Source: Escherichia phage SP22
Sequence record: LC519489.1
Reading direction: 5' to 3' (one strand)
Length of the DNA: 64,000 nt
Shown: positions 49,719-64,000 of the stretch, piece after piece
Layout: every line of letters begins with the position of its first letter
How positions within the stretch are numbered: position 1 is the stretch's first letter
The notes under the pieces: model-generated
Database searches by the model: none
The model's input: the letters and a program-made list of their open reading frames with translations, nothing else
What the model was told of the DNA's origin: nothing
Program-made: the position numbers and the translations under genes

Positions 49719-49982
49719 TTGAGAGAGAATAAAATGTTTAACAAAAGCAAAGCTGTGAGTCATGTAGCAAAAGTTGACAGCAAGATTGAAGAACTTGAGC
49801 GCATTCTTGCAAATGCTAGAGAGTCAATAATTAAAGAAGTTGAAGCTGTTGAATCTCAAATGCAACACCTAATGCTTAAACGTCAAGAGCTACGTGAGCA
49901 TCTAGAATATATCGAAACACGAGAGCTAAAGGTTAACAGATATTTTAAGGAGCCAAAATGTTTAACTCAAGAGAATCAGTAA
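49719..49982 (+). CDS. Hypothetical protein
   Basis: ORF track. Confidence 0.4.
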   Translation: MRENKMFNKSKAVSHVAKVDSKIEELERILANARESIIKEVEAVESQMQHLMLKRQELREHLEYIETRELKVNRYFKEPKCLTQENQ

Positions 49983-50713
49983 AAAACTGGAATCTTCGTT
50001 GTGGAAACACTCAAAAACAACCTTACAGTAATGAGTATTGGGAATCTTTGAAATCTCAATCTCTGTGTATGCTTGAAGAAGCAAAAGAGCTTGTAAAAGC
50101 AATTGAAGAGAAAGACCCCATTGAGACACTGGATGCTCAGGCAGATTTGCAATATGTTCTTGACGGTTTGATTTACCTGTCACAACATGACCATAACGGT
50201 GCTATGAAAGCTGTTTGCCATAATAATGACCTGAAGTACACAGACGATTATGAAGAAGCTTTAAAACGTCTTGCAGACATTGAAAAGCGCACTGGTCAAG
50301 AGTGTATTATCAGAATGTCAGTTGTTGATGGTAAAGAATGGTATGCGATTGTTCGTGCAGCCGATGGGAAGATTATGAAGCAATCAAATCTCCCTAAAGT
50401 ACAGCTTGGTGAATACATTGTAGAACTTGAAAGCCAAGAACTTTTTGTGGTAGTATCTGAGACATGCGTTATCTGCAAAGGTATTGTAGATAGCTTAAAG
50501 GATTTGGGTGTAGATGGTTTTGTAGAAGTTAATCCAATTACCTCTAAAGCAGATAAAGATTTCTGTAAAGAGAATGGACTATGGATTGCAGATATTGTCT
50601 ACTATGATGGTGAGCAGTTCCATGTAACCTCATACCCGAAACTGAATTATGATGCTAATAACCTGAAGTGTTGGTTAAAAGGGGTTGGTTATAATGGATT
50701 CACAGAACATTAA
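49958..50713 (+). CDS. Hypothetical protein
   Basis: ORF track; no firm motif. Confidence 0.4.
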   Translation: MFNSRESVKNWNLRCGNTQKQPYSNEYWESLKSQSLCMLEEAKELVKAIEEKDPIETLDAQADLQYVLDGLIYLSQHDHNGAMKAVCHNNDLKYTDDYEEALKRLADIEKRTGQECIIRMSVVDGKEWYAIVRAADGKIMKQSNLPKVQLGEYIVELESQELFVVVSETCVICKGIVDSLKDLGVDGFVEVNPITSKADKDFCKENGLWIADIVYYDGEQFHVTSYPKLNYDANNLKCWLKGVGYNGFTEH

Positions 50714-55498: not shown

Positions 55499-57643
55499 AT
55501 GAACAAAGTACAGATTATTAAAAAGAATGGCTCACTTGAAGAACCTGATATCAAAAAAGTTTTAGCAGCAGTCACAAAGTCAGCTAACAGAGTTGGTTAT
55601 AAAGAGCTTCCACCAGATGTTACTCAAGCTCTTGAGTCAGCATTTATGAGGATTCTGGTAAAGTCCACTAAGCAGAATAATTTGCTTATCTCGGTAAATG
55701 ATATTCACAGTATTGTTGAAGGTGCTTTGGCAGAAGTTAATCACGAGATTTATGAGTCTTACTCAACATATAGAAATTACCGTAAAGAAGTTGCTCAAAA
55801 TTGGGATGAACTCTACCAGAAGACCAAAGATACACTCTTCTTAGGTGACAGAGAGAATGCTAACTTTGACAGCAGTTTAATTTCTACAAAAGGTTCAATT
55901 ATTCGTGGTTATCTGACTAAAGAAATCTTTAAACAGTACCATTTAACACCAGAGGAACTTGAAGCCATTGAAAAAGGGTTTATCTATATCCATGATTTAA
56001 GAGACCTAATCTTTGGTGGTATCAACTGTTGCCTGTTTGACATTGGTAAAGTCCTGAAAGGTGGCTTTGAAATGTCTGGCATCGAATATTGTGAACCAAA
56101 GTCTGTGCTGTCGGCCTTACAGGTTATTGGTGACGTAGTTCTTTCAGCAACTGCACAGCAATTTGGTGGCTTTACTTTAGCAGAGATTGATAAGGTACTT
56201 GTACCGTATGCTAAGAAGTCTCTACGCTATCATGCTGAGAAAGCAGCATCTTATGGTATTCCTAAAGAACATTACCACAATTATGTCATGGAGCAGCTAC
56301 AGATTGAACTAACTCAAGGTTTCCAGTCACTTGAAATGAAACTAAATACCGTACCTTGTAGCCGTGGGGATTTTGCATTTACAACTTTGACATTCGGGTT
56401 ACTTGACTCAGATATGTCTAATGAAGATAACCGACTGCAATATATGATTGCAAGTACTCTCCTAGATGTTCGTATGAATGGACAAGGTAAGAGCAAGAAA
56501 CCTGTTGTATTCCCTAAACTGGTTTATATTTATGACCAGAAGAGACATAATGAGAATATCTGTCAAGGCCACCTGTACAGTAAAGCTATAGAGTGTTGCT
56601 CTAAAGCGATGTATCCAGATTTCTTAAGTGTATCTGGTCATGGTGCTGTAGCAGAAGCTTTTGAGCGTTCTGGCAAGGTAATCTCGCCGATGGGTTGTAG
56701 AGCCTTCTTATCTCCATATCTTAACGAGGATGGGGAAGAGTTCTACGTTGGTCGTGCTAACATTGGTGCTGTATCTTTGAACTTACCAATGATTTACCAG
56801 TATTCTAAAGAGAATGGTTTAGATTTCTGGAAAGAGCTTGATAAGTACCTAGAGATGATTCGCAGCTTCCACAAGAAACGCTACGAAATGATTGCTAATA
56901 TGCCAGCAAGTTCTAACCCTCTTGCATTCACACAAGGTGGTCTGTACAAAGGGACTAAGAAACCTACTGACAAGGTTGGTTGGGATATCGTGAAGTCCTT
57001 CACAGCTTCTTTTGGGGTTACTGCTCTTGATGAGCTATCTGTTCTTGCTGAGGGTAAACGACTTCATGAAGTTGGAAGCTATAGTTTTGCATACGATGTT
57101 CTGGCGTACATCAACATGAAAACTGAAGAGTTTAAAAATGAAGATGGTTTCTTATATGCAGTCTATGGCACTCCAGCAGAATCACTTTGTGGAACTCAGC
57201 TAAAACAGTTCAGAGATATGTTTGGCGTTATCAAAGGTGTTTCTGATAAAGAATACTTTACAAATAGTTTCCATATGAATGTTGCAGCAGACATTACACC
57301 ATTTGAGAAGCAGGACTTAGAAGAACCCTTCTTCCATATCTGTAGAGGCGGCAGAATCCAGTATGTAAGGGTAGCTAACCCAGAAAACTTGCCAGCACTT
57401 AAAAGTTGTATTACCAGAGGGATGTTGAAGGGTTTTTATCAGGGACTTAACTTTGACTTAGCAATCTGTGAACATTGTGGTAACAGACCAAAATCAGATG
57501 TTGAAGAGTGTGAAGTTTGTCACTCACATGATATCTCTGTGATTAACAGGGTGTGCGGATATCTTGGGTGGACTAAGATTAAAGGTGAATCTCGAATGAA
57601 TGATGCAAAAATCGCTGAGATTCGTGACAGAGTTTCTATGTAA
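55499..57643 (+). CDS. nrdD: Anaerobic ribonucleotide reductase (class III)
   Basis: C-terminal Zn site CEHCGN ... CEVCHSHD and glycyl-radical motif RVCGYLG. Confidence 0.85.
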   Translation: MNKVQIIKKNGSLEEPDIKKVLAAVTKSANRVGYKELPPDVTQALESAFMRILVKSTKQNNLLISVNDIHSIVEGALAEVNHEIYESYSTYRNYRKEVAQNWDELYQKTKDTLFLGDRENANFDSSLISTKGSIIRGYLTKEIFKQYHLTPEELEAIEKGFIYIHDLRDLIFGGINCCLFDIGKVLKGGFEMSGIEYCEPKSVLSALQVIGDVVLSATAQQFGGFTLAEIDKVLVPYAKKSLRYHAEKAASYGIPKEHYHNYVMEQLQIELTQGFQSLEMKLNTVPCSRGDFAFTTLTFGLLDSDMSNEDNRLQYMIASTLLDVRMNGQGKSKKPVVFPKLVYIYDQKRHNENICQGHLYSKAIECCSKAMYPDFLSVSGHGAVAEAFERSGKVISPMGCRAFLSPYLNEDGEEFYVGRANIGAVSLNLPMIYQYSKENGLDFWKELDKYLEMIRSFHKKRYEMIANMPASSNPLAFTQGGLYKGTKKPTDKVGWDIVKSFTASFGVTALDELSVLAEGKRLHEVGSYSFAYDVLAYINMKTEEFKNEDGFLYAVYGTPAESLCGTQLKQFRDMFGVIKGVSDKEYFTNSFHMNVAADITPFEKQDLEEPFFHICRGGRIQYVRVANPENLPALKSCITRGMLKGFYQGLNFDLAICEHCGNRPKSDVEECEVCHSHDISVINRVCGYLGWTKIKGESRMNDAKIAEIRDRVSM

Positions 57644-59867: not shown

Positions 59868-59880
59868 ACAGAGACTATAG

Positions 59881-59904
59881 GGGAACTGTAAAGGTTCCCT
59901 TTTT
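59881..59904 (+). terminator. Rho-independent terminator
   Basis: GGGAAC-tgtaaa-GGTTCCC + T5. Confidence 0.6.
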
Positions 59905-59918
59905 ATTTTGGAGGTAAA

Positions 59919-60434
59919 ATGTATCTGTCAAACCTGAAACGTTCGGTTGCAATGTCAGTTCTAAGACTCAGCTTTGATGAGCGTCAAGAGTTTATAGACT
60001 CCCACAAATATGACCCTTCAAATTCTAATCACATGGTTCTTTGGAATCGTGATAACTTCCGTGAAAGAGCACTTGTCCGTTATTACCCACACTACACAAT
60101 AGATAACCTGTATGAATGGTGTGTTGTGAAGAACACCATTGCAACACTGAACAATCTTTGCAGGTATACGGGTAAGCAAACATTTACATTAGGTCATCAC
60201 AAACCTGTTACAAAAGGTGGTGAACATCACTGTGCAAACTGGTTTATCCAAACTAAAGCTGATAACCAGAAGCAAGGAGATAGCCTCCTAAGTATCCCTA
60301 AGATGACCTATGAAGAGCAAGAGAAATATATCAAAAATAATATGCCAGATGTGCTTGACAACAACTATACAGATTTGGCAATATCTCTCCTGTTGAAGTT
60401 CGAGACAGTTTATAGGGCAACTTATAATGGCTAA
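59919..60434 (+). CDS. HNH-like endonuclease (putative)
   Basis: LGHHKPVTKGGEHHCANWF motif. Confidence 0.4.
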   Translation: MYLSNLKRSVAMSVLRLSFDERQEFIDSHKYDPSNSNHMVLWNRDNFRERALVRYYPHYTIDNLYEWCVVKNTIATLNNLCRYTGKQTFTLGHHKPVTKGGEHHCANWFIQTKADNQKQGDSLLSIPKMTYEEQEKYIKNNMPDVLDNNYTDLAISLLLKFETVYRATYNG

Positions 60435-60705
60435 AGAAAAGTGGGAGATTTTACCATTAGTCAGTGAAGGAGGTAATGGTTGTGAAATGTACATGATACG
60501 TGGTCATGTTCCAGAGCCAATTGCACTTGAGATGGTAAACAACTTTACAGATGGTTCTTACAAAGACTTAGGCGAACCAACTGTCAAGCAACAATGGGTT
60601 AAACCTGTACCAGACAGCACAGGTAACTGTAGTGTACTTTATCACGTTGTAGACCCTGCAAAATGCAAATCTGCAATGGCAGTAACAAACGTAACTTTTG
60701 ATTGA
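60427..60705 (+). CDS. Hypothetical protein
   Basis: ORF track. Confidence 0.4.
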   Translation: MAKEKWEILPLVSEGGNGCEMYMIRGHVPEPIALEMVNNFTDGSYKDLGEPTVKQQWVKPVPDSTGNCSVLYHVVDPAKCKSAMAVTNVTFD

Positions 60706-61598
60706 GAGAGAAAACTATGAAAACATCTATCCGTGTTACAGTTCATTCACCAACTAAAGGAACTCATGAAGAAGAGTTTAACATCATCCAATTTCCTTCT
60801 GGTGAGATTGGTGGACACTTTTCGCCAGAGTTTGTTGATTTCACTGCTTATGCAGCATCATCCATCAACAATGTGATTATGATTGTAAAAGGTTATGATA
60901 AGGATACATTGTTTGCTGTGGCACTTGCTAAAGAAGCAATTGATGATTTAATTCCTCATGATTATGCTTTAAAGACTGTCATCTTTTACTACTTACCAAA
61001 TGCACGTTATGACCGTCACATGTTTAAAGGCGACGCAGCAGCTTTAAAGGTTTTTGCTAAACAGGTAAATGCAATGGGATTTGGTGCAGTCTGTGCAGTT
61101 GACCCTCACAGCTATGTACCAGATAACCTGTTTAACTGCTTCCAGAGTATTCCTCAAAAGGAAATTGCAGTCCACTATGCAAATGACCCACTGATTGATT
61201 ACTTAGTAGCCCCAGATGCAGGTGCTGCTAAGAAGATTGCAGAGACTGCTAAAGAGGTGGATAAACCATATATCACAATGTCTAAAGTACGCAACCTTAA
61301 GACTGGTGAAATTACTGGTATGCGAATCCTTGATGATGTTGATTTGACAGATAAAACCGTCATGATTCTGGATGATATCTGTGATGGTGGTCGAACCTTC
61401 ATAGAAGCAGCTAAACATCTTCGTGAAGCAGGTGCAAAACGTGTGGAACTCTATGTAACACACGGTATCTTCTCTAAAGATGTTGAAAACCTTCTTGACA
61501 ATGGCATTGACCACATCTACACTACAAACTCTTTAGGGGAAGCTAAAGACCGTGGCTTAACACATTATGGTCAAGTTACTGTAGCAAACCTTGATTGA
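60702..61598 (+). CDS. prs: Ribose-phosphate pyrophosphokinase-like protein (Prs family; could instead be an ADP-ribose pyrophosphate synthetase homologue)
   Basis: PRPP-binding-type motif VMILDDICDGGRT; 298 aa; adjacent to NAMPT-like gene. Confidence 0.6.
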   Translation: MREKTMKTSIRVTVHSPTKGTHEEEFNIIQFPSGEIGGHFSPEFVDFTAYAASSINNVIMIVKGYDKDTLFAVALAKEAIDDLIPHDYALKTVIFYYLPNARYDRHMFKGDAAALKVFAKQVNAMGFGAVCAVDPHSYVPDNLFNCFQSIPQKEIAVHYANDPLIDYLVAPDAGAAKKIAETAKEVDKPYITMSKVRNLKTGEITGMRILDDVDLTDKTVMILDDICDGGRTFIEAAKHLREAGAKRVELYVTHGIFSKDVENLLDNGIDHIYTTNSLGEAKDRGLTHYGQVTVANLD

Positions 61599-61607
61599 AA
61601 CTTTATA

Positions 61608-61628
61608 GGGGCTTAAAAGCCCCATTTT
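61608..61628 (+). terminator. Terminator-like hairpin between Prs-like and NAMPT-like genes
   Basis: GGGGC-ttaaaa-GCCCC + ATTTT. Confidence 0.45.
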
Positions 61629-61643
61629 GAGAGAGATTAAAAG

Positions 61644-63425
61644 ATGACTAAATCACTTTATGCAGTACCAGCAGGTTTAAACGCAGATGCTTACAAATCT
61701 GGTCATGTTTACCAGTACCCTAGTGCAACAGAGTACTTGATGTTCAACCTGACACCACGTAGTGACAAATGGTTTAACAGCCCCTTAGCAATTGATGGTG
61801 TAGTAGCTTTTGGTATTCAACGTTTCGTTAAAGATTACTTGATAGACCACTGGAACGCCACTTTCTTTGAACGTGATAAAAAAGAAGCCATTGATGAAAT
61901 CTTAGAAGTCATGAATGGTGTTCTGGGTAAAGATGCTATCGGTCGAGAGCATTGGGAAGCACTTCACGACTTAGGTTATCTACCAGTTGAAGTATACGCT
62001 GTAGAAGAAGGTACAGTTGTTCCTATGCGTGTACCAATGATTGTCTTCCAGAACACTGTTTCAGGTTTCCATTGGGTAGCGGGATATCTGGAAGATGCTT
62101 TCTCTGCTGAGATTTGGAAGGCTTGCACCATTGCAACTATTGCATTGCATTATAAACGCATCTGTAAGAAGTGGGCTGACCTTACTTGCGACAATGACTT
62201 ACATTTACCTTATCAGTGCCATGACTTTGCTATGCGTGGTATGTCCGGCTTTACTGATGACGCATTTAACGCTGTAGGCCACTTAACCAGCTTTAAAGGA
62301 ACTGATAGCTTTCCTGCTGTGTATACGGCTAAACGAATCTATGGACAGTCCTACCCAATCTCTGATATTGGTAGTTCTGTACCAGCCACTGAACACTCTG
62401 TAATGTGTGCAAACATTGCTTGGGAAGGTGGTAATGAGTTGGTTGAAGAAGAAAGACGCTTTAAAGGTGAGTTGCAAACCTTCCGTCGCTTCTTAACAGA
62501 AACTTATCCAACTGGTATTGCAAGTGTTGTTTCAGACACTTATAACTTCTGGAGAACTGTGTCAGAAATCTTACCAGCACTCCGTAAAGAAATTATGGAA
62601 CGTGATGGCAAACTGGTAATTCGTCCTGACTCTGGAGACCCTGTACACATTGTCACAGGTTATAAAGCAATCCACTTAGAGTGTGCTAAAAAGGCTTATT
62701 ATGAGCACCTAAGCAATCTGGAAGCCAGTGACACAATGCTGAATGCTGTTCTGAACATGAAGCTTGAAAACATCAGCTATGGTATTGCTGGATGGCTACT
62801 GTCAGAAGGCTACGAAATGGTTGTTGACAGAGAAGACTTTGAAGTTGCTGATACAGTGATGTTGAAGAACGCTTATATGGTTGGTTCTGCAAACGTTGTA
62901 ACACGCCCTGTAGCAGAGGTTGATGGAGCTATTAAGACCTTGTATAACATCTTTGGAGGAACTATCAACTCTAAAGGTTTTAAGGTACTGGATGAGCACA
63001 TTGGACTTATCTATGGTGACTCTATCACGTTGGAACGTGCAAACGAAATCCTGAAGCGTCTGTATGAAATGGGGTTTGCAAGCTCTAACGTGGTGTTTGG
63101 TGTAGGCTCTTACACTTACCAGTACATGACTCGTGACACCTTTGCATTTGCTGTCAAAGCAACTCTTGCAAGCATTGGTGGCAAAGAGATTATGCTTGCA
63201 AAAGACCCTAAAACAGATAGTGGTGTTAAGAAATCTGCCTTTGGTGGTGTAGCACCTATGTGGGATGGTGAGAATTTGAAAGCTGTAGATGGCTATGGAT
63301 TCCAGAGCTTTGCAGATGCACTTGAACATCCAGCTTGTGCTTTACGTTTAGTCTTTAGCGACTCTGAGCAGTACGGTTACACAACTCTTGGTGATATTCG
63401 AAATAATATTGACAATCAGCTTTAA
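61644..63425 (+). CDS. nadV: Nicotinamide phosphoribosyltransferase-like protein (NadV/NAMPT family), 593 aa
   Basis: N-terminus DAYKSGHVYQYP resembles NAMPT; longer than typical NAMPT (about 470-500 aa from memory). Confidence 0.7.
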   Translation: MTKSLYAVPAGLNADAYKSGHVYQYPSATEYLMFNLTPRSDKWFNSPLAIDGVVAFGIQRFVKDYLIDHWNATFFERDKKEAIDEILEVMNGVLGKDAIGREHWEALHDLGYLPVEVYAVEEGTVVPMRVPMIVFQNTVSGFHWVAGYLEDAFSAEIWKACTIATIALHYKRICKKWADLTCDNDLHLPYQCHDFAMRGMSGFTDDAFNAVGHLTSFKGTDSFPAVYTAKRIYGQSYPISDIGSSVPATEHSVMCANIAWEGGNELVEEERRFKGELQTFRRFLTETYPTGIASVVSDTYNFWRTVSEILPALRKEIMERDGKLVIRPDSGDPVHIVTGYKAIHLECAKKAYYEHLSNLEASDTMLNAVLNMKLENISYGIAGWLLSEGYEMVVDREDFEVADTVMLKNAYMVGSANVVTRPVAEVDGAIKTLYNIFGGTINSKGFKVLDEHIGLIYGDSITLERANEILKRLYEMGFASSNVVFGVGSYTYQYMTRDTFAFAVKATLASIGGKEIMLAKDPKTDSGVKKSAFGGVAPMWDGENLKAVDGYGFQSFADALEHPACALRLVFSDSEQYGYTTLGDIRNNIDNQL

Positions 63426-63439
63426 AAGTATATGATAAG

Positions 63440-63461
63440 AGGCTCCTACGGGAGCCTTTTT
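63440..63461 (+). terminator. Rho-independent terminator
   Basis: AGGCTCC-tacg-GGAGCCT + T-run. Confidence 0.6.
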
Positions 63462-63478
63462 AATTTCTGGAGAAGATT

Positions 63479-63814
63479 ATGAAAATCAAAGAGATGAACA
63501 TCAACATTGTCTTAGAAGAACGTTGGGAGAATATTAAGAAACCTGAAGATGGTAAAAAGTTCCTTAACAAAATTTTAGTAGCAGCTAAAGAAGAACTGAA
63601 TGGCAAGATTGCAGCAGCAGTCACAATAAAAGTTTGTGTAAAAGGTCTTCCAGACAACCACCAATTTGCGCTTGACGAGTTTAAAAAAAGCTTCTACAAT
63701 CCAAACAAACAGATGCTTGAAAGTAACTTTGCAGTATCTACAAGTATCGTCCATGACAGAAGCTTTATCCTTTACAAAAATATGAGAGGTGAGTCATGCA
63801 AGCATATTGGATAG
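63479..63814 (+). CDS. Hypothetical protein
   Basis: ORF track. Confidence 0.4.
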   Translation: MKIKEMNINIVLEERWENIKKPEDGKKFLNKILVAAKEELNGKIAAAVTIKVCVKGLPDNHQFALDEFKKSFYNPNKQMLESNFAVSTSIVHDRSFILYKNMRGESCKHIG

Positions 63815-64000
63815 AAATTTTACTGTCACTTGGTAGCGTAGCAGTATTTGTTTACCTTCTTTGCAAGTACTTTGCAGAACACAAGAAGTGTGACTACTGC
63901 AATGGGGAAGGGTATACAAGAGCAGGTTGTTGCCCTATGTGTGGTGGTTCTGGTAAAATGTTTAATAAGTAATTTAACAGTAAACTAAGAGGAAAGTATT

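What the first reader, a model, noticed from the sequence alone, without database searches (positions are those of the whole stretch)
60702..63425. Adjacent Prs-like and NAMPT-like genes: candidate phage NAD+ reconstitution (counter-defence) module
A PRPP-synthetase-family ORF (motif VMILDDICDGGRT) sits directly upstream of a NAMPT-family ORF, separated only by a hairpin. Phage NadV-type genes are known as NAD+ salvage. Recent work describes a two-enzyme phage pathway (ADP-ribose pyrophosphate synthetase, a Prs homologue, plus a NAMPT homologue) that rebuilds NAD+ from ADP-ribose and nicotinamide to defeat NAD+-depleting immunity. Sequence alone cannot tell the two chemistries apart. The NAMPT-like protein is about 100 aa longer than typical, and no NMN adenylyltransferase was recognised inside the window.
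Basis: partly seen in the sequence, partly recalled or inferred. Interest (0 to 1): 0.8.

Follow-up and report, generated by a model that had tools for sequence, protein, structure and literature searches.

The report
Known phage NAD+ rebuilding operon (NARP1)

Summary
A Prs-family ORF (true start ATG 60717, to 61598, 293 aa) lies 45 nt upstream of a NAMPT-family ORF (61644-63425, 593 aa), and a stable hairpin sits between them. The window is a Felixounavirus, 98% identical in DNA to phage wV8. The NAMPT-like protein is 98% identical (580/593, no gaps) to gene 80 of phage Bas63. The Prs-like protein is 79% identical to Bas63 gene 79. That Bas63 operon is the one in which NARP1 was discovered. 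The wV8 orthologues are already listed in that paper's Adps and Namat tables.

Sequence can now separate the two chemistries. The protein carries the Namat-specific adenine clamp (GSYTYQYMTRD, and Lys42-Trp43), which true Nampts lack. ORF A groups with Adps, not bacterial Prs. I found no NMNAT, Nudix, Macro or RyR gene.

The extra ~100 aa is mostly a confidently folded ~85-residue subdomain. It is shared by all Ounavirinae-type Namats, including functional Bas63, and has no structural relative.

Verdict: interpretation supported, already known, low interest. Two small open points remain: the orphan insertion, and a recombinant N-terminal allele of Adps that has not been tested.

The parts
60717..61598 (+). 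adps: ADP-ribose pyrophosphate (ADPR-PP) synthetase, a Prs-family enzyme of 293 aa. This is the wV8-type allele.
   Evidence: Pfam, NCBIfam and PHROG hits. 79% identical to Bas63_0079 and 98.6-99.7% to wV8-type phages. The wV8 orthologue is listed as Adps in Osterman Table S1. It groups with Adps proteins, not bacterial Prs, in an NJ tree.
60717..61226 (+). Mosaic N-terminal segment of adps (codons 1-170). It is a divergent allele relative to Bas63.
   Evidence: DNA identity to Bas63 falls to 64-78% here, against 92-99% in the flanks. Amino-acid identity is 68%, against 93.5% for codons 171-293. dS is saturated and dN/dS is 0.085. The identity distribution among phage records is bimodal.
61284..61286 (+). 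Lys190 of Adps, the predicted catalytic lysine.
   Evidence: It aligns with SPbetaL1 Adps K162. The K162A mutation abolished NAD+ formation.
61371..61397 (+). DDICDGGRT loop of Adps (residues 219-227), at the position of the Prs ribose-5-phosphate loop DDxxDTAGT.
   Evidence: Alignment of Adps and Prs proteins. The residues differ from Prs in the same way across the Adps proteins in that alignment.
61608..61623 (+). Intergenic hairpin GGGGCT-TAAA-AGCCCC, followed by ATTTTG and a GAGAG ribosome-binding stretch.
   Evidence: dG -12.6 kcal/mol, z -3.1. The stem is invariant in Felixounavirus and Mooglevirus and only the loop varies. It falls below the terminator scan's T-run threshold.
61644..63425 (+). 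namat: nicotinamide ADPR-transferase, a NAMPT-family enzyme of 593 aa.
   Evidence: 98% identical to Bas63_0080. Best solved relative by sequence is SPbetaL1 Namat 9W5W/9W5X (7e-128), against Xcc Nampt (5.6e-52) and human NAMPT (~1e-40). AF2 model pLDDT 93.7; Foldseek top hits are 9W5X/9W5W with target TM-score 0.95.
61758..61775 (+). Selectivity-clamp loop (SCL), RSDKWF, residues 39-44. Lys42-Trp43 lie at the adenine-stacking positions.
   Evidence: Alignment to SPbetaL1 Namat, where R40 pairs with K42. PMC12774641 states that when Lys occupies the third position the fourth residue stacks, giving Bas63 as the example.
62394..62396 (+). His251 in ATEHSV, at the position of the catalytic, autophosphorylated histidine of the NAMPT family.
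   Evidence: Invariant in a 35-sequence alignment. The catalytic core is described in PMC12774641.
62661..62924 (+). Inserted alpha/beta subdomain of Namat (residues ~340-427), absent from the ~495-aa Namats and Nampts.
63105..63137 (+). Selectivity-clamp helix (SCH) motif GSYTYQYMTRD, residues 488-498.
   Evidence: [quoted passage not shown] True Nampts have GAQTYQRNTRD (HdNadV) or GGALLQKVDRD (Xcc).
63437..63460 (+). Terminator-like hairpin with a T-run, closing the operon.
   Evidence: Terminator scan. dG -17.2 kcal/mol, z -3.35. Conserved in Bas63.
59879..59901 (+). Upstream terminator-like hairpin. It marks the likely 5' limit of the transcription unit, which also holds two unrelated small ORFs (59919-60434 and 60427-60705).
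   Evidence: Terminator scan and fold. The two ORFs are not NARP1 parts.

Best explanation
This is a two-gene NARP1 (NAD+ reconstitution pathway 1) operon of a Felixounavirus.

Trigger. A host NAD+-depleting defence (SIR2-HerA/Nezha, type I Thoeris, DSR1/DSR2, SEFIR, Kongming and similar) cleaves NAD+ into ADP-ribose and nicotinamide.

Step 1. Adps (60717-61598) transfers pyrophosphate from ATP to the 1'' position of ADP-ribose, giving ADPR-PP.

Step 2. Namat (61644-63425) replaces that pyrophosphate with nicotinamide and regenerates NAD+ directly. No NMN intermediate and no NMN adenylyltransferase are needed.

What is shown and what is inferred. Shown here: orthology to the type example, clade membership, the specificity motifs and the absence of an NMNAT. 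Shown by others on orthologues: the phenotype and ADPR-PP production in Bas63, and the two enzyme activities on the SPbetaL1 proteins. Inferred: that this particular allele pair has the same activities, and that the two genes are transcribed together, with the intergenic hairpin acting as a stability or attenuation element.
For: - Host phage: the window is 98% identical in DNA to Felixounavirus wV8.
- Orthology: Namat is 580/593 identical with no gaps to Bas63_0080. Adps is 231/293 identical to Bas63_0079, with the same lengths and the same spacer hairpin and terminator.
- Bas63 experiments: deleting genes 79-80 gave about 20-fold fewer plaques on SIR2-HerA cells and deeper NAD+ depletion. ADPR-PP (m/z 720.010) appeared only with wild-type phage. 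Protection persisted in a pncC nadR double-deletion host.
- Published listing: wV8 Adps and Namat appear in the published NARP1 tables.
- Adps clade: an NJ tree places ORF A with Adps proteins. It is 30% identical to the biochemically tested SPbetaL1 Adps and about 20% to bacterial Prs. K190 aligns with SPbetaL1 K162.
- Not a housekeeping Prs: all Prs equivalog models score far below their cut-offs (40-103 bits against 296-536).
- Namat signature: the SCH motif GSYTYQYMTRD and SCL K42-W43 match the published Namat signature and differ from HdNadV and Xcc Nampt.
- Structure: the best structural match is the Namat crystal structure.
- Accessory genes: no NMNAT, Nudix, Macro or RyR gene was found.
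Against: - No enzyme from a Felixounavirus has been assayed in vitro. The biochemistry was done on SPbetaL1, DyoEdafos and Paenibacillus homologues that are 30-38% identical.
- The window's Adps carries an N-terminal half only 68% identical to the genetically tested Bas63 allele. Its activity therefore rests on conserved motifs and purifying selection.
- SPbetaL1 Namat can still make NMN from PRPP in vitro when ADPR-PP is absent, so some ordinary salvage flux is not excluded.
- The role of the ~85-residue insertion in Namat is unknown.
Confidence: 0.93

Rival explanations
1. Ordinary phage NAD+ salvage. ORF A is a true PRPP synthetase and ORF B a NadV-type Nampt that makes NMN. A host enzyme (NadR, or NadD after PncC) then converts NMN to NAD+. 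This would boost NAD+ supply in general rather than repair defence damage.
For: Database names say so: 'ribose-phosphate pyrophosphokinase' and 'nadV / nicotinamide phosphoribosyl transferase' in wV8 and Bas63. TIGR01251 is just passed (121.3 against 113 bits) and NF006629 is passed. Namat homologues can form NMN from PRPP in vitro.
Against: For the 98%/79% identical Bas63 operon, protection did not need pncC or nadR, and the intermediate detected was ADPR-PP. ORF A fails every Prs equivalog cut-off, lacks the Prs C-terminal tail and the DLHxxQIQGFF motif, and groups with Adps. ORF B carries the adenine clamp, which true Nampts lack. With both substrates present, SPbetaL1 Namat made only NAD+.
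Confidence: 0.03
2. NARP2-type or extended pathway. The pair would work with a third enzyme encoded elsewhere in the phage: an NMNAT/Nudix (NARP2), a Macro-domain ADPR-1''-phosphatase (NARP1-AP), or a RyR-domain cADPR glycosidase (RyDEP).
For: Such extensions exist in other phages. About 23 kb of this phage's genome lies outside the window. Bas63 annotates a 'putative phosphatase' (bas63_0095) about 8 kb downstream.
Against: Neither the four flanking ORFs nor the ten mid-size hypothetical ORFs gave a Macro, RyR, NMNAT or Nudix Pfam hit. No NMNAT or Nudix motif occurs in the window. None of the 161 features annotated in Bas63 is such a gene. Published lists class the Bas63 and wV8 Namats as Adps-associated, not Nmnat-associated.
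Confidence: 0.03
3. The wV8-type Adps allele has a changed substrate or regulatory specificity relative to the Bas63 type. The mosaic N-terminal domain would be functionally significant rather than a neutral recombination variant.
For: There is a sharp recombination boundary within the gene. Two discrete allele classes are seen among phage records: 154 at 90% identity or more, 90 at 60-80%, and only 8 in between.
Against: dN/dS is 0.085, which indicates purifying selection. Every motif shared across Adps proteins is kept in both alleles (FPSGE, LPNARYDRH, DPHS, APDAGAAKK, K190, DDICDGGRT). Both alleles sit next to nearly identical Namats.
Confidence: 0.05

Closest known systems
NARP1 operon of Escherichia phage JohannRWettstein (Bas63), genes 79-80 (Osterman et al., 'Phages reconstitute NAD+ to counter bacterial immunity', bioRxiv 10.1101/2024.02.11.579819)
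   Same: Same virus genus, same gene order, identical protein lengths (293 and 593 aa), and the same intergenic hairpin and terminator. Namat is 98% identical. The C-terminal 123 residues of Adps are 93.5% identical. The Namat insertion is the same.
   Different: The first 170 codons of Adps are a different allele (68% amino-acid identity, 69% DNA identity). Bas63 has an extra small gene (0081) just after the operon's terminator, which the window and wV8 lack.
NARP1 of Bacillus phage SPbetaL1 (Adps WIT26982.1; Namat crystal structures 9W5W and 9W5X, PMC12774641)
   Same: Same two-enzyme architecture, the same catalytic residues, the same SCH clamp motif (GSFTYQYNTRD against GSYTYQYMTRD) and the same fold (target TM-score 0.95).
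   Different: Only 30% (Adps) and 38% (Namat) identical. The SCL uses Arg40 there and Lys42-Trp43 here. SPbetaL1 Namat lacks the ~85-residue inserted subdomain and the ~15-residue insertion after the catalytic histidine.
NARP2 / NadV-NatV salvage of Vibrio phage KVP40, and bacterial NadV (for example Haemophilus ducreyi HdNadV, 9KE8)
   Same: The Nampt-family fold and catalytic core are shared. Both raise NAD+ in infected cells.
   Different: NARP2 uses PRPP and needs an NMNAT. The window has no NMNAT, has an Adps instead, and its transferase carries the adenine clamp that HdNadV lacks (GAQTYQRNTRD).
NARP1-AP (Vibrio phage Gary) and RyDEP-linked NARP1 (phage DyoEdafos)
   Same: The core Adps and Namat genes.
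   Different: Those operons carry a third gene, a Macro-domain ADPR-1''-phosphatase or a RyR-domain cADPR glycosidase. Neither was detected here, so this phage is predicted to remain sensitive to aRES-type NAD+ cleavage.
Class I ribose-phosphate pyrophosphokinase (Prs; B. subtilis 1DKR, E. coli, human PRPS1)
   Same: Homologous phosphoribosyltransferase-type fold. The RxDR motif, the catalytic-loop lysine and the DD...T loop are conserved.
   Different: About 20% identity. There is no C-terminal ~25-residue tail. DPHS replaces DLHxxQIQGFF, and DGGRT replaces DTAGT. All Prs equivalog models score far below their cut-offs.

Membership tests
NARP1 - Adps (ADPR-PP synthetase) | Prs-family (phosphoribosyltransferase-type) protein | tested here: met
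   PF00156 1.2e-11, PF14572 4.7e-10, TIGR01251 3.7e-35, phrog_619 8.7e-97.
NARP1 - Adps (ADPR-PP synthetase) | Falls in the phage Adps clade, separate from bacterial and archaeal Prs | tested here: met
   A small NJ tree (8 Adps, 4 Prs) places it with Adps. It is 30% identical to SPbetaL1 Adps and 19-22% to Prs. The 98.6%-identical wV8 protein is listed in the published Adps table. My tree has no bootstrap support values.
NARP1 - Adps (ADPR-PP synthetase) | A Namat homologue within ten genes | tested here: met
   Namat starts 45 nt downstream on the same strand.
NARP1 - Adps (ADPR-PP synthetase) | Catalytic lysine equivalent to SPbetaL1 K162 / B. subtilis Prs K197 | tested here: met
   K190 in SKVRNLKTGE aligns with K162 in HKQRNFHTGE.
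NARP1 - Adps (ADPR-PP synthetase) | Converts ADP-ribose plus ATP to ADPR-PP, and does not act on ribose-5-phosphate | not testable with these tools
   Shown in vitro for SPbetaL1 Adps. ADPR-PP was detected in Bas63-infected cells only when genes 79-80 were present.
NARP1 - Namat (nicotinamide ADPR-transferase) | NAMPT fold with an intact catalytic core (D15/Y17, F195, R198, D221, H251, R327, D329) | tested here: met
   All are invariant in a 35-sequence alignment. AF2 model pLDDT 93.7, target TM-score 0.95 to 9W5X.
NARP1 - Namat (nicotinamide ADPR-transferase) | [quoted passage not shown] | tested here: met
   GSYTYQYMTRD at residues 488-498, with Y490 and Y494. The true Nampts HdNadV and Xcc lack the aromatics.
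NARP1 - Namat (nicotinamide ADPR-transferase) | SCL loop supplying an adenine-stacking residue (Arg at position 3, or Lys/Tyr followed by a stacking residue) | tested here: met
   K42-W43 align with SPbetaL1 R40-V41. This is identical to Bas63, the paper's own example. Actual stacking is inferred, not modelled with a ligand here.
NARP1 - Namat (nicotinamide ADPR-transferase) | Prefers ADPR-PP over PRPP and forms NAD+ directly | not testable with these tools
   Shown for SPbetaL1 Namat. Not assayed for any Felixounavirus enzyme.
NARP1 - whole pathway | Counteracts NAD+-depleting defence in vivo | not testable with these tools
   Shown by deletion in Bas63 (SIR2-HerA). The window phage itself is untested.
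NARP2 (Nampt + Nmnat) | An NMN adenylyltransferase encoded by the same phage | tested here: not met
   No H/TxGH, ISSTxxR or Nudix motif in six-frame ORFs. No Pfam hit in 16 candidate ORFs. None is annotated in Bas63. About 23 kb of this phage's own genome was not seen.
NARP1-AP / RyDEP-extended NARP1 | A Macro-domain phosphatase or RyR-domain glycosidase within two genes of the operon | tested here: not met
   Pfam at E up to 1 gave no Macro or RyR hit for the six flanking ORFs tested, which include the two on each side of the operon. This used hmmscan only, which is less sensitive than the HHpred search used in the paper.
Housekeeping Prs (PRPP synthetase) | Passes the curated Prs equivalog models and has the N-terminal Prs domain and C-terminal tail | tested here: not met
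   Equivalog scores are 40-103 bits against cut-offs of 296-536. No N-terminal Prs-domain hit at E up to 0.01. The C-terminal ~25 residues and the QIQGFF motif are absent.

The most novel reading that the evidence does not exclude
The ~85-residue alpha/beta subdomain inserted in Namat (residues ~340-427; window 62661-62924) may be a functional module rather than decoration.

What I found: it is conserved in Ounavirinae-type Namats down to about 46% identity, it folds confidently on its own, and it has no detectable structural relative in the PDB or BFVD.

Possible roles: docking Adps so that the hydrolysis-prone ADPR-PP is handed on directly; changing the oligomeric state; or shielding the enzyme from a host inhibitor.

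[quoted passage not shown] Other Namat lineages carry unrelated insertions at the same loop, which suggests the site is repeatedly exploited.
Probability: 0.15. Interest if true: 0.45.

Novelty: already known. Interest (0 to 1): 0.15.

Why it matters
The call is useful mainly for annotation. Public records still name these genes 'ribose-phosphate pyrophosphokinase' and 'nadV / nicotinate phosphoribosyltransferase', which implies the wrong chemistry.

Recognising the pair as NARP1 makes three predictions:
- This phage, and more than 200 close relatives, some of which are used for phage typing of E. coli O157, can infect hosts carrying SIR2-, TIR- or SEFIR-type NAD+-depleting defences.
- It should remain sensitive to aRES-type defence, because it lacks the Macro-domain phosphatase.
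- It should not need host NMN salvage enzymes.

None of this is new biology. The system, its mechanism and even this exact gene family are published.

Tried and rejected
1. A four-gene operon. The two co-oriented ORFs between the upstream terminator and adps (59919-60434 and 60427-60705) were tested as possible accessory genes.
   - Neither has a Macro, RyR or other NAD-related domain.
   - The 92-aa ORF is confined to Felixounavirus, Suspvirus and Mooglevirus and has no counterpart in Kolesnikvirus.
   - The 171-aa HNH-like ORF is syntenic in Kolesnikvirus (51% identity). In Stephanstirmvirinae it sits beside a helicase with no Adps or Namat nearby.
   - Rejected as NARP1 parts.

2. The intergenic hairpin as an intrinsic terminator. 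It fails the T-run criterion, and the T-run is ACTTTG in Mooglevirus. The stem is invariant, so covariation says nothing either way. Its function is left open.

3. Positive selection on the Adps N-terminus. Rejected: dN/dS is 0.085 with saturated dS, which points to exchange of old alleles by recombination.

5. TATAGGG motif. It occurs three times within 1.8 kb around the operon but is not enriched in the window overall (5 found, 4.3 expected).

6. Solved Adps structure. None found: the best PDB sequence hit is an archaeal Prs, 4TWB, at 4.4e-18. No Adps structure paper turned up in the library.

7. A first guess at the Bas63 accession (MZ501111) was a different BASEL phage. The correct record is MZ501086.


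Full report
**Observation**

ORF A is listed mechanically from TTG 60702. That TTG overlaps the stop codon of the upstream ORF. ATG 60717 is preceded by GAGAGAGAAAACT and is the start annotated in wV8 and Bas63. The gene is therefore 60717-61598 (293 aa). The motif VMILDDICDGGRT is at residues 215-227. ORF A matches:
- Pfam Pribosyltran (1.2e-11) and Pribosyl_synth (4.7e-10);
- TIGR01251 (121.3 bits, cut-off 113);
- PHROG 619, 'ribose-phosphate pyrophosphokinase' (8.7e-97).

ORF B (61644-63425, 593 aa) matches NAPRTase (2.8e-35), NAMPT_N, NF006629 (1.9e-140) and PHROG 448 (1.9e-202).

The 45-nt spacer contains a GGGGCT/AGCCCC hairpin at 61608-61623 (dG -12.6 kcal/mol, z -3.1). A stronger terminator-like hairpin with a T-run follows ORF B at 63437-63460.

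**Where the window comes from**

Megablast of 60400-64000 finds 257 phage records. The best is Escherichia phage wV8 at 98.0% over 100% of the query, and nearly all are Felixounavirus or close Ounavirinae. Public records annotate the two genes as 'ribose-phosphate pyrophosphokinase' and 'nadV / nicotinamide (or nicotinate) phosphoribosyltransferase'.

**Link to the published system**

The paper that discovered NARP1 (bioRxiv 10.1101/2024.02.11.579819) started from genes 79-80 of BASEL phage Bas63 (JohannRWettstein), which is a Felixounavirus. I fetched that record, MZ501086.
- ORF B is 580/593 (98%) identical to Bas63_0080, with no gaps.
- ORF A is 231/293 (79%) identical to Bas63_0079, with the same length.
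- The spacer hairpin, both ribosome-binding stretches and the downstream terminator are conserved.

What that paper shows for Bas63:
- Deleting the operon cut plating on SIR2-HerA cells about 20-fold and deepened NAD+ depletion.
- Protection persisted in a pncC nadR double-deletion host.
- ADPR-PP (m/z 720.010) appeared only in cells infected by wild-type phage.

What it shows with the purified SPbetaL1 homologues:
- Adps pyrophosphorylates ADP-ribose.
- Namat joins ADPR-PP to nicotinamide to give NAD+.
- Namat prefers ADPR-PP over PRPP.

The paper's supplementary tables list the wV8 proteins as an Adps homologue and as an 'Adps-associated' Namat. The wV8 Adps sequence printed there differs from the window's at about four positions.

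**Can sequence tell Adps/Namat from Prs/Nampt?**

Yes.

*Namat.* The crystal-structure paper (PMC12774641) defines a selectivity clamp with two elements.
- The SCH helix has the consensus GS-X-phi-X-phi-X-phi-TRD. [quoted passage not shown]
- The SCL loop supplies a third stacking residue. It is Arg at position 3, or Lys/Tyr at position 3 followed by a stacking residue at position 4, with Bas63 given as the example.

The window has GSYTYQYMTRD (residues 488-498) and RSDK42W43F. For comparison:

| Protein | Type | SCH region | SCL stacking residue |
|---|---|---|---|
| Window ORF B | Namat (proposed) | GSYTYQYMTRD | K42-W43 |
| SPbetaL1 | Namat | GSFTYQYNTRD | R40 |
| H. ducreyi NadV | true Nampt | GAQTYQRNTRD | none |
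| X. campestris | true Nampt | GGALLQKVDRD | not aligned here |

By sequence, the best solved relatives are 9W5W/9W5X (SPbetaL1 Namat, 7e-128), well ahead of Xcc Nampt (5.6e-52) and human NAMPT (~1e-40). An AlphaFold2 model (pLDDT 93.7, pTM 0.92) matches 9W5X best (E 1.2e-53, target TM-score 0.95), then HdNadV, then mammalian NAMPT. The catalytic-core residues D15, Y17, F195, R198, D221, H251, R327 and D329 are invariant in a 35-sequence alignment.

*Adps.* I aligned ORF A with seven Adps and four bacterial Prs sequences taken from the published table.
- ORF A groups with the Adps set: 30% identity to SPbetaL1 Adps against 19-22% to Prs.
- K190 aligns with the catalytic K162.
- It shares the Adps-specific differences from Prs: DPHS in place of DLHxxQIQGFF, DGGRT in place of DTAGT in the ribose-5-phosphate loop, and no C-terminal ~25-residue tail.
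- All NCBIfam Prs equivalog models score far below their cut-offs.

**NMNAT and accessory genes**

No NMNAT or Nudix signature occurs in any six-frame ORF of the 64-kb window. Pfam scans of the six ORFs around the operon and of ten mid-size hypothetical ORFs gave no NMNAT, Nudix, Macro or RyR hit. None of the 161 features annotated in Bas63 is such a gene. The genes downstream of its operon are three small hypotheticals followed by rIIA and rIIB.

This is therefore plain two-gene NARP1. It is not NARP2. It is also not the extended NARP1-AP (Macro phosphatase, bioRxiv 10.64898/2026.01.28.702374) or the RyDEP-linked form (bioRxiv 10.64898/2026.05.28.727677). By that work, plain NARP1 should fail against aRES defence.

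**The extra ~100 residues**

Relative to the ~495-aa Namats and Nampts, the protein has two insertions.
- The larger one adds about 72 residues in the loop after RPDSGDP. Together with the reshaped loop it forms a subdomain at residues ~340-427.
- The smaller one adds about 15 residues after the catalytic His251.

**A mosaic Adps**

DNA identity to Bas63 drops sharply to 64-78% over 60717-61220 and is 92-99% on both sides.
- Codons 1-170 are 68% identical at the protein level, with saturated dS and dN/dS of 0.085.
- Codons 171-293 are 93.5% identical.
- Namat is 97.8% identical.

Across phage records the Adps identity distribution is bimodal: 154 records at 90% or more, 90 at 60-80%, and 8 in between. 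This points to two old alleles of the N-terminal domain exchanged by recombination, both under purifying selection. The window carries the wV8-type allele. The genetically tested allele is the Bas63 type. Every motif shared across Adps proteins is retained in both.

**Surroundings**

Terminator-like hairpins at 59879-59901 and 63437-63460 bracket four co-oriented ORFs. I tested the two upstream ORFs as possible accessory genes and rejected them.
- The 92-aa ORF is confined to three Ounavirinae genera.
- The 171-aa HNH-like ORF is syntenic in Kolesnikvirus, but in Stephanstirmvirinae it lies beside a helicase with no NARP1 nearby.

In Kolesnikvirus phages an HNH homing endonuclease gene sits between adps and namat.

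**Verdict**

The module is an orthologue of the published type example of NARP1, and its near-identical wV8 counterpart is already listed in the published NARP1 tables.
- Novelty: already known.
- Interest: 0.15.
- Confidence in the NARP1 assignment: 0.93.
- Residual uncertainty: no Felixounavirus enzyme has been assayed in vitro, and the wV8-type Adps allele is untested.
- Most novel reading still open: the orphan Namat insertion has a function of its own (probability about 0.15).

Noticed in passing
window 60717-61226: The N-terminal 170 codons of adps are a recombinant cassette. They are 64-78% identical in DNA to Bas63, while the flanks are 92-99%. Two discrete allele classes exist among related phages. 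dN/dS is 0.085, so these are old alleles under purifying selection, not an arms-race signal.
   Followed up: yes
[not shown]
   Followed up: yes
window 62415-62468 (Namat residues ~258-275): A second, smaller insertion lies just after the catalytic His251. Its length varies among Ounavirinae: Suspvirus and Mooglevirus forms are 12-15 residues longer.
   Followed up: partly
window 61608-61623; L005, L006, L008, L009: The stem of the adps-namat intergenic hairpin is invariant across Felixounavirus and Mooglevirus, although Adps differs by more than 20% in protein sequence between them. Only the loop varies (TAAA, TGAA, GAAA). The T-run is weak, so it may be an RNA stability or attenuation element rather than a terminator.
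   Followed up: partly
window 59919-60434: A 171-aa ORF with an HNH-like motif (LGHHKPVTKGGEHHCANW). It is 51% identical to a gene at the same position in Erwinia phage Harbringer, which is better conserved than Adps (40%). In phAPEC8-like phages it sits next to a helicase instead. Function unknown.
   Followed up: partly
L007 4295-4882 (Erwinia phage Harbringer); L010 1045-1289 (Hafnia phage SPARTY): In Kolesnikvirus phages an HNH homing endonuclease gene is inserted between adps and namat. The two NARP1 genes therefore need not be contiguous, and homing endonucleases could drive the local recombination mosaic.
   Followed up: no
window ~63476; L005 6009-6353: Bas63 carries an extra 345-nt gene (bas63_0081) immediately after the Namat terminator. 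It is absent from the window and from wV8.
   Followed up: no
window 55499-57643; L004 46630-49516: The anaerobic ribonucleotide reductase gene nrdD is uninterrupted in the window (714 aa). In Bas63 it is split in two pieces around a homing endonuclease gene.
   Followed up: no
proteins P0069-P0082, P0109-P0118: Chromosomal ~496-aa homologues occur in Klebsiella, Cronobacter, Erwinia, Kosakonia and Phytobacter, at 40-48% identity. Those aligned (Erwinia, Klebsiella, Cronobacter) carry the Namat clamp motif GS[YF]TYQYNTRD, so they may be bacterial Namats rather than NadV. This is consistent with the bacterial NARP1 homologues reported in PMC12774641.
   Followed up: no
window 49958-50710: A 251-aa ORF with a MazG-like phosphoribosyl-ATP pyrophosphohydrolase domain (PF01503, 9.8e-06). 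It is another nucleotide-metabolism gene of unknown role.
   Followed up: no
window 59876, 60411, 61604: TATAGGG occurs three times within 1.8 kb around the operon, twice at the 5' edge of a hairpin. The motif is not enriched in the whole window (5 found, 4.3 expected).
   Followed up: partly
L012 781-2973 (Klebsiella phage KP13-26): This phage carries a nadR-pnuC pair, a different NAD+ supply route, about 2 kb upstream of its homologue of the 171-aa ORF.
   Followed up: no
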